Notes under the pieces: model-generated
What the model saw: only the letters and a program-made list of their open reading frames with translations
The model's database searches: none
What the model was told of the DNA's origin: nothing
Assembly (NCBI RefSeq): GCF_041248615.1
Contig: NZ_CP158426.1
Source of the DNA: Escherichia coli
GTDB lineage: Bacteria; Pseudomonadota; Gammaproteobacteria; Enterobacterales; Enterobacteriaceae
Strand: one strand, 5' to 3'
DNA: 64,000 nt
Part shown: positions 1,337-59,931 of the stretch, piece by piece
Layout: each line of letters begins with the position of its first letter
How positions within the stretch are numbered: the first letter of the stretch is position 1
Position numbers and translations under genes: made by a program

Positions 1337-1424
1337 GGTGAGGTGTCCGAGTGGCTGAAGGAGCACGCCTGGAAAGTGTGTATACGGCAACGTATCGGGG
1401 GTTCGAATCCCCCCCTCACCGCCA
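1337..1424 (+). tRNA. serW: tRNA-Ser (GGA anticodon)
   Basis: 88-nt sequence GGTGAGGTGTCCGAGTGGCTGAAGGAGCACGCCTGGAAAGTGTGTATACGGCAACGTATCGGGGGTTCGAATCCCCCCCTCACCGCCA with long variable arm and CCA end; sits between infA and clpA as in K-12. Confidence 0.9.
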
Positions 1425-54848: not shown

Positions 54849-55423
54849 ACCGGGCCTCCGGTTGTGTCGCCGCCTTTCAGGACGCCAGTATGCTGATGCG
54901 CATCAACCACGATCCCGTTAGAACTCATTGCACCGCCACCCTGGGTAACGCCACCATTGATCACCACTTCGCTGTTAATACGCGTGCGGTCAGCCTCCAG
55001 CACAAACTCACTGGTTTTCAGGGTGATGTTGTCGGCAGCCTCAATGACCATGGATTTGATGCCCCTGACATACCAGCGCCCGGTGGCGGGTTCGTATTCA
55101 AACCAGCCACCATCAGGATGTTCTGTCACGCAGGCTTCCGCCGACGTTGACGGCGGTGCGAACTGATTCGAATAGATGGCGGGCAACGCAAAGGCGGTTT
55201 CCAGATTGCCACCCAGGCTGAACAGCACAACCTGCTCGCCCACAGACGGTTTCCACCAGGTGCGCGATTTGCCCGCGCGCAGTGTCAGCCAGTTAATCCA
55301 GTTGGTTTCAAGGTCGCCCGTTTTCACCCGGCAAAGCCAGTTCTCCCGGTCCACCTCGGTGACTACACCAGTGCGGATCAGGTTGGTGATAAGGCGCATG
55401 ATTTCAGTCAGTTGTGCATTCAT
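54845..55423 (-). CDS. Baseplate spike protein (P2 gpV-like)
   Basis: ORF 54845-55501; start placed at MNAQLTEIMRLITNLIRTGVV by similarity to recalled P2 V. Confidence 0.8.
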   Translation of the reverse strand: MNAQLTEIMRLITNLIRTGVVTEVDRENWLCRVKTGDLETNWINWLTLRAGKSRTWWKPSVGEQVVLFSLGGNLETAFALPAIYSNQFAPPSTSAEACVTEHPDGGWFEYEPATGRWYVRGIKSMVIEAADNITLKTSEFVLEADRTRINSEVVINGGVTQGGGAMSSNGIVVDAHQHTGVLKGGDTTGGPV

Positions 55424-55471
55424 GAGAGCGATCCTTGCACAACCGGGTAGAGTGATGTAATACAGAGCGTA

Positions 55472-55489
55472 TGTATGGAGAACCACACA
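55472..55489. promoter_or_regulatory. Candidate Ogr-dependent late promoter element (TGT-N12-ACA) upstream of V
   Basis: TGTATGGAGAACCACACAA, ~55 bp upstream of the V start. Confidence 0.5.
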
Positions 55490-55518
55490 AAAGAGAAACA
55501 ATTTCTAAGGTATTTAAG

Positions 55519-56385
55519 ATGACACAAATCGCAATTTATGGATTTAATTTCACTAAAAAAATCACATTTGACGGTGGTGAGTTAACTCCTATTTTCAGTT
55601 CATGGAGTGAGTTAAAAAAAAATGGCTGGGCTAATGATAGGTACATCCTCACTGGTTTTTTCAAACCAAACTCGAATAACTACGCCACTCAACAGCAGCT
55701 TATTTTTGATTTACAAGCAGTTCTTAGTTTTATTGAACAAAAAAATGTAATCATTTCAGGAGAACTTGAAAATGATGAAACCCCTTTCAATTTCAAACCA
55801 TCTCTACCCAAAAAGCTTGACAAAAAAAGAGATAAGGGTGCGGGCATTATCATCATGGAAGATTATTTTGCACCAAACAGCCGAGAAAATTTTATTTGCT
55901 TAGCCATGGAAAAACTAAATAGTAAAGCCATGCTAAAACAAGATGCCTTTAGAACATCATTTTTTAAATCAATGCTAGCTTTCCGCGACTCAATAAATTA
56001 TATCGACGTCAGATATTATTTATTATTCTCGGCACTAGAAGCACTTTGCAGATTTATTAAAAATGACTACTCCCCTGCCAAAACACCACAAATAATCACT
56101 CAGGTTTTAAAAGAATATGGTTTTAATGTCGAAAAAACAGGACATACATTAGCTCAAAGAAACATTATGCATTACTGCAAACTCCGTCACTCGCTGTTCC
56201 ACAATGGTAAATACATTGCCTATCTTGATGAAAAAAACTCAGATGGCAAAATTGAAATTCAAGATTACTCATCAAATTTGAATTTACTGGTGCCACTTGT
56301 ACTAATGAAATTCATAGGATTTGATGACAATTATATAAACTGGGACTCATGGATTGATAGGAATCCATTTATCAGTAAAAAGTAA
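55519..56385 (+). CDS. AT-rich hypothetical cargo protein (~288 aa) between tail genes V and S; function unknown, candidate accessory/defence gene
   Basis: ATG at 55519 (ORF frame opens at 55471); visibly AT-rich and Lys/Asn/Ile/Phe-rich; opposite strand to all flanking late genes; no P2 counterpart at this position; C-terminal R-x4-H motif (RHSLFH). Confidence 0.7.
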   Translation: MTQIAIYGFNFTKKITFDGGELTPIFSSWSELKKNGWANDRYILTGFFKPNSNNYATQQQLIFDLQAVLSFIEQKNVIISGELENDETPFNFKPSLPKKLDKKRDKGAGIIIMEDYFAPNSRENFICLAMEKLNSKAMLKQDAFRTSFFKSMLAFRDSINYIDVRYYLLFSALEALCRFIKNDYSPAKTPQIITQVLKEYGFNVEKTGHTLAQRNIMHYCKLRHSLFHNGKYIAYLDEKNSDGKIEIQDYSSNLNLLVPLVLMKFIGFDDNYINWDSWIDRNPFISKK

Positions 56386-56411
56386 ACTAAATTTTATAAA
56401 TGTGGTTTTAT

Positions 56412-56858
56412 TTATCTCTGTAACCAATTTAGCAAAGCATCCTGAATGACAGTTTCCACATCATCATTTACGCCTAGGAGACGACGCTCTGCGTAACGGA
56501 CCTCCGGTCCTCTTCGACTGATGCGATCACGCAGGCCGTAGTGATGAACGCGGGCAATGCGCTGCACCTGACCTTCAAACTGCACGCTGGCAGAATCGGC
56601 GCTGGCGGCAGTTTTCAGGTATTTTGTGGTGCGCAGCTTTGTAAACATCTGACGTTTGATGCGCCCCTTTTTGCTGCGTGCTGTTACCCGTCGCGGCTCA
56701 TAACTGCTGCCATCTGGATTGCGCTGCATCCTGATGTTCTGCTGCTGTGTCCGGCGCAGTTCCTGCGCCAGCTGGCGCATCATGCGACTTCTCGTGGCTG
56801 GTTCCAGATTCGCCAGCAAGGCACTCAACCAGTCGTCCACCTTCTGCAGTTCAGCCAC
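56412..56858 (-). CDS. Tail completion protein (P2 gpS-like)
   Basis: 148-aa ORF MAELQKVDDWLSALLANLEPATRSRMMRQLAQELRR... Confidence 0.8.
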   Translation of the reverse strand: MAELQKVDDWLSALLANLEPATRSRMMRQLAQELRRTQQQNIRMQRNPDGSSYEPRRVTARSKKGRIKRQMFTKLRTTKYLKTAASADSASVQFEGQVQRIARVHHYGLRDRISRRGPEVRYAERRLLGVNDDVETVIQDALLNWLQR

Positions 56859-57303
56859 GTTTCACCGTCCACATTTCTTCAGGTTCATCGGGTTCTGCTA
56901 CAGCTTCAACGCTCGACACACTGCCGTCAGTGCTGACCAGCACACGCTCCGTCAGTTGCAGGTTCAGGCTGATATCACAGACATCGTTGCGCAGAATATC
57001 CACCTCAAAGGTGAATAGTTTTTCCCGTAACGCCGGGTTATTGATGGCATCGGGCTGGTTATCCCTCAGCCACAGCAAAACCGGGGCCATCAGCAGATTC
57101 TGGTCGCCGCTGAAATCCTCAATCACCGCGTTCAGGGTGTAACGGTACTCCCACGACATGGAGCTGGCCCCCGTAGCAACCAGCGAACCGTTATCCACAA
57201 ACAGATGCAGTTTGTCCGGGTTATTGCGGACATAAGGCACCGCTTTATTGAGGGCGTGGCGCAGGGATTGTGGTTTGTTCACTGTTTCGCTCCTGACACG
57301 CAA
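56851..57303 (-). CDS. Tail completion protein (P2 gpR-like)
   Basis: 150-aa ORF overlapping S by 8 bp. Confidence 0.8.
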   Translation of the reverse strand: MRVRSETVNKPQSLRHALNKAVPYVRNNPDKLHLFVDNGSLVATGASSMSWEYRYTLNAVIEDFSGDQNLLMAPVLLWLRDNQPDAINNPALREKLFTFEVDILRNDVCDISLNLQLTERVLVSTDGSVSSVEAVAEPDEPEEMWTVKRG

Positions 57304-57535
57304 TAATCATGTCCACTTTGTCTGCACAGACCGCCCAGGCGGCCTCCGTTTCATCCAGCAATGCGTTCAGATCACCGTTAGTGCGCGGCGCTGCCTGCTC
57401 CAGCCGACACGGCGTCACTCGCGGACAACCACTGACGGTAAGCTGCACCTCCGGTGAGTGCCGGACGTTCCCGCAGCCGGATAATGTCAGCAGGCAAAGG
57501 AGTATCAGCCCAGCGGCGTAAATCCTCGTTCTCAC
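57245..57535 (-). CDS. Outer-membrane lipoprotein spanin (Rz1/LysC-like), out of frame across the lysB/R junction
   Basis: Lipobox LLTLSGC; Pro-rich mature part; overlaps lysB 3' end and R 5' end. Confidence 0.65.
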   Translation of the reverse strand: MRTRIYAAGLILLCLLTLSGCGNVRHSPEVQLTVSGCPRVTPCRLEQAAPRTNGDLNALLDETEAAWAVCADKVDMIIACQERNSEQTTIPAPRPQ

Positions 57536-57806
57536 GTTTCAGTTCCTCGATCCGGCGTTGTCGTTGTCTCAGCAGTGCGCTGGTCTGTTCTGCTTCGGCG
57601 TAGAGCCGCGCCTGCTCCCGATTATTGGTTTCAGCCAGAATGGACAGACCGATCAGCTGGCTGTTTTTCTTCGTCAGTTCTTGCGCTTTACTTTTCAGCG
57701 CCGTGCGCTGCGTTTCGATGGTGTGGCTGGCGCTGTTAAGCCGCCACGACTGCCAGCCCAGCGTAACGAGTGCCAGCGCCACCACTACTGCCAGCGCACG
57801 CGTCAT
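57378..57806 (-). CDS. Inner-membrane spanin (Rz/LysB-like)
   Basis: 142-aa ORF with N-terminal TM segment and charged coiled-coil region. Confidence 0.7.
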   Translation of the reverse strand: MTRALAVVVALALVTLGWQSWRLNSASHTIETQRTALKSKAQELTKKNSQLIGLSILAETNNREQARLYAEAEQTSALLRQRQRRIEELKRENEDLRRWADTPLPADIIRLRERPALTGGAAYRQWLSASDAVSAGAGSAAH

Positions 57807-58318
57807 AGTCCAGCTCCTTTAAGGCACCAGGCCATCTCCCGCGCACGGCGGTTATCCAGCCCCTGATTAAACACACCTTTTACATACACCCAGCGCGGCA
57901 ACTGTCGGCACGCATCCGCCCAGCGCCGCTGATTGAGCAATTTCACCAGCGTGGAACTGCAGGCATTGCCCGTACCCACGTTGAAGGCAAACGACACCGC
58001 AGCGTCATACACCTTCTGCGGCGGCTGTTGCTTCACACACCTTTCCAGCGCCCGCTCCACACGCAGCACGTTGGAGATCAGCCCTTCTGCTGCCTGTCGC
58101 TCCGTAATGGTTTTGCCGGGAATGACGCCCGACGTATTACCAATGCCGTCAGTCCAGACACCCGCGCTGCACTGATACGGCTGCAGGCGACAGCCTTCGT
58201 AATCGGCAATCAGTTTCAGCCCTTCCACGGAGGTGTGAAGCTGCTGAAAACCCGGCAGCATGGCAGCAATAGCCAGCACGGCCCCGACAAGGCAGCGTTT
58301 AACGATTGATGGATTCAT
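57803..58318 (-). CDS. Phage lysozyme (endolysin) with weakly hydrophobic Gly/Ala-rich N-terminus (possible SAR type)
   Basis: 171-aa ORF; N-terminus RCLVGAVLAIAAMLPGF then VEGLKLIADYEGCRLQPYQCSAGVWTDGIGNT. Confidence 0.8.
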   Translation of the reverse strand: MNPSIVKRCLVGAVLAIAAMLPGFQQLHTSVEGLKLIADYEGCRLQPYQCSAGVWTDGIGNTSGVIPGKTITERQAAEGLISNVLRVERALERCVKQQPPQKVYDAAVSFAFNVGTGNACSSTLVKLLNQRRWADACRQLPRWVYVKGVFNQGLDNRRAREMAWCLKGAGL

Positions 58319-58514
58319 AGTCCTCCCGCGAGATCTGCCCGTCGCGCAGAAGCTGGTAGGCTTTGTGTTTGTAGTACCAGTTGATAGCCAGCATCAGCAC
58401 ACCAATCATCAGGCCGCCCAGCGTTGAGGCATCCTTGATGGACAAATCGCCCAGCCAGGCCAGCACGACGGCGATGCAATACGTGATAAAGGCGCTGATT
58501 CGCTCAAGCGTCAT
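58299..58514 (-). CDS. Holin (two predicted TM segments, 71 aa)
   Basis: Small ORF immediately upstream of the endolysin with hydrophobic stretches ITYCIAVVLAWLG and LGGLMIGVLMLAINWYY. Confidence 0.65.
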   Translation of the reverse strand: MTLERISAFITYCIAVVLAWLGDLSIKDASTLGGLMIGVLMLAINWYYKHKAYQLLRDGQISREDYESINR

Positions 58515-58517
58515 AAT

Positions 58518-58721
58518 TCAGTCCCATAGCTGGACGGTCTGCACGGTGGTGGTAGTCGGAATGTCCGGCAGCTCCACCTGCAGCCCGTGAGGTAAAAAGG
58601 GGCCGTATTCGGCAAGCCCCGGATTTGCCTTCAGTACCTGCTCCGTGACACCCTGCGTGCGCCCGTAATGACGCCAGCAAAGCGCGTCCACCGTGTCATA
58701 CTGATGCGCACGCACTTTCAT
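58518..58721 (-). CDS. P2 gpX-like tail protein
   Basis: 67-aa ORF between L and the holin, in P2 order. Confidence 0.7.
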   Translation of the reverse strand: MKVRAHQYDTVDALCWRHYGRTQGVTEQVLKANPGLAEYGPFLPHGLQVELPDIPTTTTVQTVQLWD

Positions 58722-59185
58722 CAGATAAGCTCCACTGTGCAGTGCGGCGCATCCTGCACCCGGCTGATGGCCCAGCGGGCATCACGCCACAAATCACCGC
58801 TTGCTTCCGCCAGTTCCTCGCCTCGCTTCACACCGGACGCCGTGGCGTCATAGTCCTGATAACGCTCGTTGAGCATGGCGCGTGCCCAGCAGTAAACCGC
58901 GTTGAAATAGTGCTGAATGCGCTCACTTTTGCCGTCCAGCTGTTCTGCCGGAACCTCTGCCAGCGAGGCATAGCCCAGCATCTGCTGGCGTCTGCGAAAC
59001 TCATACAGCTCTGCGTTGACCTCCGAAATTGCCGACAGCGCAACCTGCTTTAGACGCGGCTGCGTCACCGTGCCGTCAGTGCGCATCACACTGCGAAACT
59101 CCGACAGGTCCACATCAGGCCAGAACGGCGTATTTCTGATGATTTCCGCCTGTTCCGGTGCCTGTTCTGGCGCAACAAACTTCAT
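58721..59185 (-). CDS. Head completion protein (P2 gpL-like)
   Basis: ORF 58721-59248; start placed at MKFVAPEQ; C-terminus ELWRDARWAISRVQ resembles recalled P2 L. Confidence 0.75.
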   Translation of the reverse strand: MKFVAPEQAPEQAEIIRNTPFWPDVDLSEFRSVMRTDGTVTQPRLKQVALSAISEVNAELYEFRRRQQMLGYASLAEVPAEQLDGKSERIQHYFNAVYCWARAMLNERYQDYDATASGVKRGEELAEASGDLWRDARWAISRVQDAPHCTVELI

Positions 59186-59280
59186 GCTGCTTTCTCCTGA
59201 AATAAAGGGCGGTGGACGGGGTTTTGATGTGGCAGAGCCTTTCGCCACCCCGTGCCGCCCGTGCGCGGGGGCACGTTCTG

Positions 59281-59931
59281 TCAGCGGCTGTCATTGCGCA
59301 GTCTGCGCTCCAGCTGCTGTTTGTCTTTTTTCACGCCACAGCGGGGATCGAGCTGTAACGCATGGTTGAGATGGTTAAGGGCAGAAGCCGGATTGCTTTC
59401 ACTCAGGACAGCGCCAATCGCTTTATGCAGACGCGCCCGTGACTGGTCCGGCATATCCAGACCGTCTGTCAGCTCCAGCGTCTGCAACAACAGATCGGCA
59501 TCAAAGCCGGTGGCGGCAAGCATTGCGCTCTGCGCCGCGTCTGCCATTTCCTCTGCCAGCACGGTCTGCACATTGCGGTTACCCAGCGGCATCACCCAGC
59601 CATGACGCAGGGCATGACGCCCGATCTCCAGCGCCCCGGCATAATCTCCGGCATCAATGCGCCACAGCATCACGTACATCAGCACGTCATCCTGCTGTGC
59701 GCCTCCGGCAGTCAGGACACCCTCTGCCCAGGCGGCGTACTTCGGCAGCAGCTCCACCTTGATTTCCGCTTTTTTGACCGTGGACTGAACGCCCTTGAGA
59801 CGGCGGCGGTCTTCCGCCAGTTGCAGCAGCATCAGGTCATAGCCCGATGCGTGGCGAACACTGCCGCCCTCGCGGGCGGCCTGTTCAGCCTGAACGCGCA
59901 GGCGATGCTGCCGTGCGGGACTCAGGCTCAT
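59281..59931 (-). CDS. Terminase small (endonuclease) subunit (P2 gpM-like)
   Basis: 216-aa ORF between N and L. Confidence 0.8.
   Translation of the reverse strand: MSLSPARQHRLRVQAEQAAREGGSVRHASGYDLMLLQLAEDRRRLKGVQSTVKKAEIKVELLPKYAAWAEGVLTAGGAQQDDVLMYVMLWRIDAGDYAGALEIGRHALRHGWVMPLGNRNVQTVLAEEMADAAQSAMLAATGFDADLLLQTLELTDGLDMPDQSRARLHKAIGAVLSESNPASALNHLNHALQLDPRCGVKKDKQQLERRLRNDSR

What the first reader, a model, noticed from the sequence alone, without database searches (positions are those of the whole stretch)
57245..58514. Lysis cassette: small two-TM holin, lysozyme with possible SAR N-terminus, and embedded spanin pair
The holin candidate (71 aa, two hydrophobic segments) directly precedes a lysozyme whose N-terminus is weakly hydrophobic and Gly/Ala-rich (RCLVGAVLAIAAMLPGF), as in signal-arrest-release endolysins. 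The lipoprotein spanin (lipobox LLTLSGC) is encoded out of frame across the lysB 3' end and the R 5' end. A pinholin/SAR-endolysin pairing would differ mechanistically from the canonical P2 Y/K system.
Basis: inference. Interest (0 to 1): 0.25.

Follow-up and report, generated by a model that had tools for sequence, protein, structure and literature searches.

The report
Known prophage lysis cassette, SAR-type lysozyme
This is the ordinary, already annotated cell-bursting gene set of a P2-like prophage of E. coli, with a small holin, a membrane-tethered lysozyme like that of phage P1, and a P2-type spanin pair; about one in five complete E. coli genomes carry it.

Summary
All four genes are real. 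They lie on the minus strand exactly at 57245-58514:
- holin, 71 aa, two hydrophobic segments
- lysozyme, 171 aa
- LysB, 142 aa
- LysC, 96 aa

The lysozyme is a phage P1 Lyz-type signal-arrest-release (SAR) endolysin by sequence. Its best solved relative is P1 Lyz. It has the E41-x8-C50-x5-T56 catalytic motif, a Cys at E+2 (C43) and a Cys (C9) in the N-terminal hydrophobic segment. This three-cysteine pattern co-varies across distant relatives. It is not the R21 type.

The spanins are P2 LysB/LysC equivalogs. They are overlapped, not embedded.

The holin passes Pfam's cut-off for the HP1 holin family. HP1 Hol was shown experimentally to be a pinholin paired with a SAR endolysin. The resemblance to HP1 Hol and to the phage 21 holin is weak, though, and the first hydrophobic segment is strongly hydrophobic, unlike that of phage 21. 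Pinholin status is therefore unproven.

The sequence is 100% identical to an E. coli chromosome, where all four genes are annotated. The cassette occurs in 1037 of 5426 complete E. coli genomes. A 2023 paper already called the near-identical Klebsiella phage KP12 enzyme P1-like SAR. Interest is low.

The parts
58299..58514 (-). Holin, 71 aa, class II (two hydrophobic segments, about 6-22 and 29-46; charged C-terminal tail; single start codon)
   Evidence: ORF. Pfam PF16080 (HP1 holin family) 36.7 bits against cut-off 28.8; PF04971 (P21 S) 23.2 bits, below its cut-off of 26. PHROG 20 holin 1.9e-26. Hydropathy. PGAP name 'HP1 family phage holin' on the identical DNA.
57803..58318 (-). Lysozyme (GH24/T4-type), 171 aa, P1 Lyz-type SAR endolysin candidate. 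Its ATG lies 20 nt inside the holin gene and follows a GGGAGGA Shine-Dalgarno sequence.
   Evidence: PF00959 4.7e-40. Best solved relative is P1 Lyz 1XJT, 7.2e-27. 38% identity to P1 Lyz and 34% to HP1 Lys. The start and N-terminus are conserved in relatives.
58241..58318 (-). Codons 1-26 of the lysozyme: basic K7-R8, then C9 and a hydrophobic core CLVGAVLAIAAMLPGF inside an uncharged run of 23 residues. This is the putative SAR segment, carrying the Cys that would perform disulfide isomerisation.
   Evidence: Mean KD 2.27, against 2.21 for P1 Lyz and 2.27 for RrrD; Gly/Ala/Ser/Thr fraction 0.38, against 0.50 and 0.61. The Cys aligns with P1 C13 and recurs in 29 of 31 distant representatives of this type.
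58151..58198 (-). Catalytic motif E41-G-C43-x6-C50-x5-T56, corresponding to P1 Lyz E42, C44, C51 and T57
   Evidence: Alignments; motif scan.
57378..57806 (-). lysB, i-spanin, 142 aa, with an N-terminal TMD (residues 4-20) and a long helical periplasmic part. Its ATG overlaps the lysozyme stop (ATGA).
   Evidence: TIGR03495 phage_LysB 175.3 bits against 92.75. PHROG 89 1.8e-47. 36% identity to P2 LysB.
57245..57535 (-). lysC, o-spanin lipoprotein, 96 aa, GTG start after GAGGA, in the +1 frame relative to lysB. Overlapped architecture.
   Evidence: NF038368 P2_Rz1 124.7 bits against 27. PF23793 1.5e-15. 42% identity to P2 LysC over the full length, both 96 aa.
57473..57484 (-). Lipobox L18-S19-G20-C21 of LysC. 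Gly follows the Cys, so no inner-membrane retention signal is expected.
   Evidence: Read from the sequence. P2 LysC aligns with CAGC at the same place.
58518..58721 (-). Gene X (tail/baseplate protein), the upstream neighbour that fixes the P2 gene order
   Evidence: PF05489 2.2e-34.
56851..57303 (-). Gene R (tail completion), the downstream neighbour. Its 5' end overlaps the lysC 3' end. The start is 57303 (TTG) or 57282 (PGAP).
   Evidence: PF06891 4.1e-46; PGAP annotation.

Best explanation
This is the late-operon lysis module of a P2-like (Peduoviridae, Elveevirus-like) prophage in an E. coli chromosome. The gene order is X, holin, lysozyme, lysB/lysC, R.

Shown here: the gene identities, the family memberships, the cysteine signature and the spanin architecture.

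Proposed mechanism, inferred by homology:
1. The lysozyme is exported by Sec and stays tethered to the inner membrane by its uncleaved N-terminal segment.
2. While tethered it is inactive, because the catalytic C50 is locked in a disulfide with C43.
3. The two-TMD holin accumulates and triggers, collapsing the membrane potential.
4. The N-terminal segment leaves the bilayer. The thiol of C9 attacks the C43-C50 disulfide and frees C50, as in phage P1 Lyz.
5. The active enzyme degrades the murein.
6. LysB (inner membrane) and LysC (outer-membrane lipoprotein) then disrupt the outer membrane.

Whether the holin makes small pinholes, as HP1 Hol and S21 do, or large holes is not resolved. I put pinholin at about 0.5.
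For: - Family matches for all four genes.
- The best solved relative is P1 Lyz, and the alignment enters the N-terminal segment.
- E41/C43/C50/T56 corresponds to P1 E42/C44/C51/T57.
- Among 50%-identity cluster representatives, 29 of the 31 that have a hydrophobic N-terminus plus the Cys pair also carry a Cys in that segment. Asp-type (R21-like) relatives lack all three cysteines. A conserved Cys in the segment makes sense only if the segment stays on the mature protein.
- The N-terminus and its ATG are conserved across relatives at 55-98% identity. Met20 is Thr in most relatives, so it is not an alternative start.
- The hydrophobic segment matches P1 Lyz and RrrD in mean hydropathy and in the length of the uncharged run.
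- The holin-plus-overlapping-lysozyme module keeps the same cysteine signature in RE-2010, Yersinia YenM_06.16-2, Erwinia EtG, Klebsiella RCIP0057 and HP1.
- For HP1, hol was shown experimentally to behave as a pinholin and lys as a SAR endolysin (PMC7312051).
- The near-identical KP12.peg.319 was modelled onto 1XJT with the SAR helix conserved (PMC9902359).
- The holin TMD2 motif S30xxxG34xxxG38 aligns with G40xxxS44xxxG48 of the S21-like EssD.
Against: - Nothing here is experimental for this cassette. No signal-peptide predictor was available, and a simple -3/-1 scan finds formally possible cleavage sites after residues 19, 23 and 33.
- The segment is less Gly/Ala-rich than proven SAR domains: 0.38 against 0.50-0.61.
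- Holin similarity to HP1 Hol itself is marginal: 21% identity, pairwise E 0.19, hhalign probability 4%. Similarity to EssD is confined to TMD2.
- TMD1 is strongly hydrophobic: KD 2.28, against 1.46 for HP1 Hol and 0.55 for EssD.
- There is no dual start, and this variant has no lysA.
Confidence: 0.75

Rival explanations
1. The holin is a canonical large-hole class II holin rather than a pinholin. The SAR lysozyme simply uses the depolarisation that any holin causes.
For: - TMD1 is strongly hydrophobic (KD 2.28) and not SAR-like, unlike S21/EssD (0.55).
- The P21 S family cut-off is missed.
- hhalign gives low probabilities against both HP1 Hol and EssD.
- Established knowledge: P1 Lyz works with holins that are not pinholins.
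- From memory and unverified here: the Serratia NucE 'secretory protein' was reported to substitute for lambda S. Some databases give relatives of this holin the name 'putative secretory protein'.
Against: - The holin passes the Pfam cut-off for the family whose founder, HP1 Hol, behaved as a pinholin (PMC7312051).
- The TMD2 small-xxx-small zipper aligns with that of S21-like EssD.
- In every relative examined, the holin is followed by an overlapping SAR-type lysozyme and never by a soluble one.
Confidence: 0.45
2. The N-terminal segment of the lysozyme is a cleaved Sec signal peptide. A soluble, active enzyme is secreted, as with Lys44 of phage fOg44, and is restrained in some other way.
For: - The layout is typical of a signal peptide: basic n-region KR, a 16-residue h-region, and helix-breaking P22-G23.
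- Formal -3/-1 sites exist.
- SignalP called the homologous HP1 Lys N-terminus a signal peptide (PMC7312051).
Against: - The Cys in the segment is conserved and co-varies with the C43/C50 pair. That would be pointless if the segment were removed.
- The homolog P1 Lyz keeps its N-terminal segment, which is resolved in crystal structure 1XJT.
- The candidate cleavage sites lie inside the h-region or inside the conserved fold.
Confidence: 0.1
3. The long N-terminus is a start-codon artefact. Translation begins at GTG (Val14), as annotated for the 157-aa versions, giving a cytoplasmic soluble lysozyme that needs a large-hole holin.
For: Some public records annotate a 157-aa product. The ATG start lies 20 nt inside the holin gene.
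Against: - The ATG is preceded by GGGAGGA, while the GTG has no such site.
- Residues 1-13, including K-R-C, are conserved as protein in relatives at only 55-60% identity.
- The same overlap with the holin gene occurs in HP1, EtG, YenM and RE-2010.
- PGAP aa.
- A start at Val14 would still leave most of the hydrophobic segment in place.
Confidence: 0.03

Closest known systems
Haemophilus phage HP1 hol/lys/orf25 cassette (PMC7312051)
   Same: - A P2-like myovirus.
- A small holin with two predicted TMDs and no dual start, whose gene overlaps the lysozyme gene.
- A P1-type lysozyme with a Cys in the N-terminal segment plus the E+2 and catalytic Cys.
- A LysB-like gene follows.
- The window holin passes the Pfam cut-off of the HP1 holin family.
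   Different: - Holin identity to HP1 Hol is only 21%, and TMD1 is much more hydrophobic (2.28 against 1.46).
- Lysozyme identity is 34%.
- HP1's cassette sits after the tail tube gene, not between X and R.
- HP1 has experimental support; this cassette has none.
Phage P1 endolysin Lyz (PDB 1XJT/1XJU)
   Same: - Best solved relative: 7e-27, 38% identity.
- The same E-x8-C-x5-T motif, the same Cys at E+2, and a Cys in the N-terminal hydrophobic segment.
   Different: - The Cys sits at the start of the segment: C9, 32 residues before the catalytic Glu, against C13 and 29 residues in P1.
- The segment is less Gly-rich.
- The window protein lacks P1's 11-residue insertion after the NVG motif.
- P1 lyz is not next to its main holin, lydA.
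Phage 21 S21/R21 pinholin-SAR pair (E. coli K-12 DLP12 EssD/RrrD used here as stand-ins)
   Same: - A 71-aa holin with two TMDs.
- The TMD2 zipper and the juxtamembrane N-x-Y-[YF]-K motif align.
- The lysozyme belongs to the same Pfam family and has an N-terminal hydrophobic segment.
   Different: - The holin misses the P21 S family cut-off, has no dual start, and its TMD1 is not weakly hydrophobic.
- R21/RrrD uses a catalytic Asp and no cysteine caging.
- The phage 21-type spanins are embedded; these are overlapped.
Phage P2 lysis cassette Y-K-lysA-lysB-lysC
   Same: - The same position between X and R.
- lysB and lysC are equivalogs, at 36% and 42% identity.
- LysC is 96 aa in both.
- The same overlapped architecture, with a 38-nt overlap into R if the PGAP start is used.
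   Different: - The holin and endolysin are unrelated to Y (three TMDs, PF04550) and K.
- There is no lysA.
Near-identical cassettes: Escherichia phage Cartapus, Klebsiella phage KP12 contig (peg.316-320), 4LV2017, Salmonella Fels-2/RE-2010/SopEPhi
   Same: - 95-97% nucleotide identity for Cartapus and KP12; 80% (holin) and 92% (lysozyme) protein identity for the Salmonella group.
- KP12.peg.319 has already been described as a P1-like SAR endolysin in a P2-type cassette with overlapped spanins (PMC9902359).
   Different: Most of these carry lysA between the lysozyme and lysB. The window, Cartapus and Kp4865-2 do not.

Membership tests
SAR endolysin, P1 Lyz subtype | T4-type (GH24) lysozyme domain | tested here: met
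   PF00959 4.7e-40; P1 Lyz 1XJT 7.2e-27.
SAR endolysin, P1 Lyz subtype | An N-terminal uncharged, moderately hydrophobic segment after basic residues, rich in weakly hydrophobic residues | tested here: inconclusive
   The uncharged run is 23 residues, against 24 in P1 Lyz and in RrrD. Mean KD is 2.27, against 2.21 and 2.27. The Gly/Ala/Ser/Thr fraction is only 0.38, against 0.50 and 0.61.
SAR endolysin, P1 Lyz subtype | Catalytic E-x8-C-x5-T, a caging Cys at E+2, and an isomerising Cys in the N-terminal segment | tested here: met
   E41, C43, C50, T56 and C9 are present. The pattern co-varies in distant relatives, 29 of 31.
SAR endolysin, P1 Lyz subtype | The segment is not cleaved, export depends on Sec, and release and activation follow membrane depolarisation | not testable with these tools
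   Needs fractionation, immunoblots, and azide or energy-poison experiments. The only indirect support is the conserved Cys in the segment.
Pinholin, S21 type | Two transmembrane segments and a charged cytoplasmic C-terminal tail | tested here: met
   Two hydropathy peaks at 6-22 and 28-48, and a tail of net charge +1. Topology itself was not tested.
Pinholin, S21 type | TMD1 is itself a weakly hydrophobic SAR segment that leaves the membrane | tested here: not met
   TMD1 KD is 2.28 with Gly/Ala/Ser/Thr 0.31, against 0.55 and 0.62 for EssD.
Pinholin, S21 type | Membership of the Pfam P21 holin S family (PF04971) | tested here: not met
   23.2 bits against a cut-off of 26. EssD scores 121 bits.
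Pinholin, S21 type | Dual-start motif giving an antiholin | tested here: not met
   There is a single Met at the start (MTLER...), and the next Met is residue 36.
Pinholin, S21 type | Small-xxx-small-xxx-small zipper in TMD2 | tested here: met
   S30, G34 and G38 align with G40, S44 and G48 of EssD. G34 and G38 are nearly invariant. The role of this motif in S21 is recalled from memory.
Pinholin, S21 type | Lesions too small for a folded endolysin; lethal without lysis | not testable with these tools
   Needs lambda S-null complementation and reporter-leakage assays.
HP1 holin family (PF16080) | Score above the curated cut-off | tested here: met
   36.7 bits against 28.8. NCBI names the identical protein 'HP1 family phage holin'. 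Direct similarity to HP1 Hol is weak.
P2-type two-component spanin (LysB/LysC), overlapped | An i-spanin with an N-terminal TMD, passing the LysB equivalog model | tested here: met
   TIGR03495 175.3 bits against 92.75; TMD at residues 4-20.
P2-type two-component spanin (LysB/LysC), overlapped | An o-spanin with a lipobox, passing the LysC equivalog model | tested here: met
   NF038368 124.7 bits against 27; L-S-G-C21.
P2-type two-component spanin (LysB/LysC), overlapped | The o-spanin gene starts inside the i-spanin gene in another frame and ends beyond it | tested here: met
   158-nt overlap, +1 frame, 133 nt past the lysB stop. Same as P2. The PGAP note says 'not fully embedded'.
P2 Y/K canonical holin-endolysin pair | A holin of family PF04550 with three TMDs, and a K-type endolysin | tested here: not met
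   No PF04550 hit for the window holin, while P2 Y scores 2.6e-42. The lysozyme against K gives only noise.

The most novel reading that the evidence does not exclude
The holin could be a pinholin that works without a membrane-exiting TMD1. Its TMD1 is as hydrophobic as an ordinary anchor. If it nevertheless makes only small holes, it would be a second topological route to pinhole formation, perhaps like the C-terminal externalisation proposed for HP1 Hol. It would be regulated without a dual-start antiholin and, in this variant, without LysA.
Probability: 0.2. Interest if true: 0.35.

Novelty: already known. Interest (0 to 1): 0.08.

Why it matters
It matters little beyond correct annotation. 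The cassette shows that many P2-like prophages of enterobacteria use a P1/HP1-type tethered lysozyme rather than the textbook P2 Y/K pair. This is already in the literature for HP1 and KP12.

The practical lesson concerns gene starts in public records:
- Some records truncate the lysozyme to 157 aa, which cuts away the start of the N-terminal segment, including the K-R-C9 motif.
- PGAP starts lysC inside its signal peptide.
- Several phage records omit lysC altogether.

These errors hide the features that define the mechanism.

Tried and rejected
- **Profile comparison of the holin.** hhalign of the holin alignment against HP1 Hol, EssD and P2 Y gave probabilities of 4%, 19% and 2%. The alignment is too shallow (Neff 1.8) to decide remote homology.
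- **Serratia NucE/NucD.** I tried to read Berkmen et al. 1997 on NucE, but the paper is not held. Two literature searches added nothing usable. The NucE link therefore rests on memory only.
- **PsP3.** I thought PsP3gp10 might be a characterised homolog, but PsP3 carries the P2 Y/K type.
- **Promoter and terminator scan of 55300-59400.** Nothing above the shuffled expectation, and no counterpart of the P2 attenuator in lysC.
- **IMG/VR scan with the holin alignment.** It returned only holins 100% identical to the window's. This was useful for lysA frequency but not for diversity.
- **The 304-aa ORF at 55471-56385.** No match in Pfam, PADLOC or NCBIfam.
- **Structure prediction.** Not run. The tool returns no coordinates, so Cys-Cys distances could not be measured, and a model of the near-identical KP12 protein is already published.
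Full report
**Observation**

- a 71-aa holin (58299-58514)
- a 171-aa lysozyme (57803-58318), whose ATG lies 20 nt inside the holin gene behind a GGGAGGA ribosome-binding site
- lysB (57378-57806), whose ATG overlaps the lysozyme stop
- lysC (57245-57535, GTG start behind GAGGA)

The neighbours are N, M, L and X upstream and R and S downstream, which is the P2 late-gene order. Family matches leave no doubt that the genes are real:
- PF00959 4.7e-40, PF16080 4.3e-9 and PF23793 1.5e-15
- PHROG holin, endolysin and spanin families
- LysB and LysC equivalog models far above their cut-offs

**Where it comes from**

The 1270 bases are 100% identical to the chromosome of E. coli NRZ14408. There PGAP annotates 'HP1 family phage holin', 'lysozyme', 'LysB' and 'LysC'. 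Related sequence is present in 1037 of 5426 complete E. coli genomes. The best phage matches are Escherichia phage Cartapus (Peduoviridae, Elveevirus) and many Klebsiella and E. coli P2-like prophages at 95-97% identity.

**The lysozyme**

Its best solved relative is phage P1 Lyz (1XJT, 7.2e-27), and the alignment runs into the N-terminal hydrophobic segment. The motif E41-G-C43-x6-C50-x5-T56 reproduces P1's E42, C44, C51 and T57. C9 sits at the start of the hydrophobic segment, as C13 does within P1's.

I scanned 148 cluster representatives at 50% identity. Of these, 31 combine a hydrophobic N-terminus with both catalytic-site cysteines, and 29 of those 31 also carry a Cys in the N-terminal segment. 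Relatives with a catalytic Asp (the R21/RrrD type) lack all three. A 22-sequence alignment shows the same split.

This co-variation is the strongest evidence available here that the segment remains part of the mature enzyme. It also supports regulation as in P1 Lyz, where the Cys in the segment frees the catalytic Cys from a caging disulfide after membrane release. That mechanism is established for P1 and is only inferred here.

The segment equals P1 Lyz and RrrD in mean hydropathy (KD) and in uncharged length, but it is less Gly/Ala-rich. I could not run a signal-peptide predictor, so cleavage is not formally excluded.

Three points count against the shorter 157-aa start found in some records:
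- the ribosome-binding site precedes the ATG, not the GTG
- residues 1-13 are conserved as protein in relatives at 55-60% identity
- the same overlap with the holin gene occurs in five genera

Met20 is Thr in most relatives, so it is not a conserved internal start.

**The holin**

It has two hydrophobic segments and a charged tail. It passes Pfam's cut-off for the HP1 holin family and misses that of the P21 S family.

HP1 Hol has been shown to kill without lysis and without beta-galactosidase leakage. HP1 Lys lyses on its own when overexpressed and depends on Sec. The authors concluded pinholin plus SAR endolysin (PMC7312051).

The transfer of that conclusion to this holin is weak:
- Identity to HP1 Hol is 21%, with a pairwise E of 0.19.
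- Profile comparison is uninformative.
- TMD1 is strongly hydrophobic (KD 2.28), against 1.46 for HP1 Hol and 0.55 for the S21-like EssD.
- There is no dual start.

In favour of a pinholin:
- The TMD2 motif S30xxxG34xxxG38 and the following N-W-Y-Y-K align with G40xxxS44xxxG48 and N-L-Y-F-K of EssD.
- G34 and G38 are nearly invariant.
- In every relative examined, the holin is followed by an overlapping P1-type SAR lysozyme.

SAR endolysins need only depolarisation, so either kind of holin would serve. I leave pinholin at about even odds.

**The spanins**

LysB and LysC are equivalogs of P2 LysB and LysC, at 36% and 42% identity, and LysC is 96 aa in both. lysC starts 158 nt before the lysB stop in the +1 frame, ends 133 nt after it, and overlaps R. 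This is the 'overlapped' class as defined by Kongari et al. (PMC6139136). It matches P2 and PGAP's own note. The word 'embedded' in the finding's title is wrong.

**Comparison with P2**

The holin and lysozyme are unrelated to P2 Y and K. The cassette is therefore a mosaic: an HP1/P1-type holin-lysozyme pair joined to P2-type spanins, in the P2 position.

That mosaic is common. The Fels-2 group (RE-2010, SopEPhi), Erwinia EtG, the Yersinia phages and Klebsiella RCIP0057 all have it, and RCIP0057's gene is annotated 'SAR-endolysin'. A 2023 paper described the near-identical KP12.peg.319 as a P1 Lyz-like SAR endolysin in a P2-type cassette with overlapped spanins, by modelling only (PMC9902359).

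**Verdict**

- SAR-type: yes, of the P1 kind.
- Pinholin: plausible but unproven.
- Embedded: no.

Nothing here is new. The kind of system is known and has been tested experimentally in HP1. This exact sequence is public and annotated, and its SAR character has been noted in print for a 95% identical copy.

Noticed in passing
window 57800-57810 (lysozyme/lysB junction); L002 2304-2681: This prophage has no lysA. Most close relatives carry a 378-nt lysA (125 aa, four hydrophobic segments, PF28015) between the lysozyme and lysB. Among 80 IMG/VR contigs with an identical holin, 53 have lysA and 23 lack it. The two forms also differ in the lysozyme C-terminus (QGAN against KGAGL) and in the LysB N-terminus.
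   Followed up: partly
L008 1501-2391 (ENA contig k141_507); protein P0011: A 296-aa in-frame fusion of the lysozyme to LysA. It is caused by a 1-nt deletion (CCTGGTG to CCTGTG) that removes the nearly invariant C165. It is seen in 48 collection blocks and in many related clusters, including complete genomes. It is probably prophage decay or a recurrent homopolymer error, but it is surprisingly frequent.
   Followed up: partly
window 55471-56385 (+): A 304-aa ORF on the opposite strand, between tail genes S and V, at the position of P2 orf30. It has no hit in Pfam, PADLOC or NCBIfam, and PGAP calls it hypothetical. The cargo at this spot differs in every relative examined: a 176-aa ORF in Cartapus, an ATPase plus a hypothetical in 813R9, and DUF6216 in L008. 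This suggests a variable cargo hotspot.
   Followed up: partly
window 57493-57535 and 58277-58318; L002, L001, L094: Start-codon and gene-call problems in public records of this cassette. The lysozyme is called at 157 aa from GTG Val14 in 813R9 and some NCBI proteins. PGAP starts lysC 14 codons late, inside the signal peptide, leaving only MLTLSGC. lysC is not annotated at all in Cartapus, RE-2010 and YenM_06.16-2.
   Followed up: yes
L091 1795-2016; L092 and L093 1795-2016: Diverged members of the holin family in Yersinia, Erwinia and Klebsiella phages (28-37% identity) begin MGLKME, MGLTME or MGLSME, with two Met codons four apart. This looks like a dual-start motif, which the window holin lacks.
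   Followed up: no
window 24001-26000: A sharp low-GC stretch (0.346, against about 0.51-0.56 around it) in the composition profile. It was not examined.
   Followed up: no
window 1337-1424 (+): A tRNA-Ser (GGA) gene, the only tRNA in the window. Its relation to any prophage boundary was not checked.
   Followed up: no
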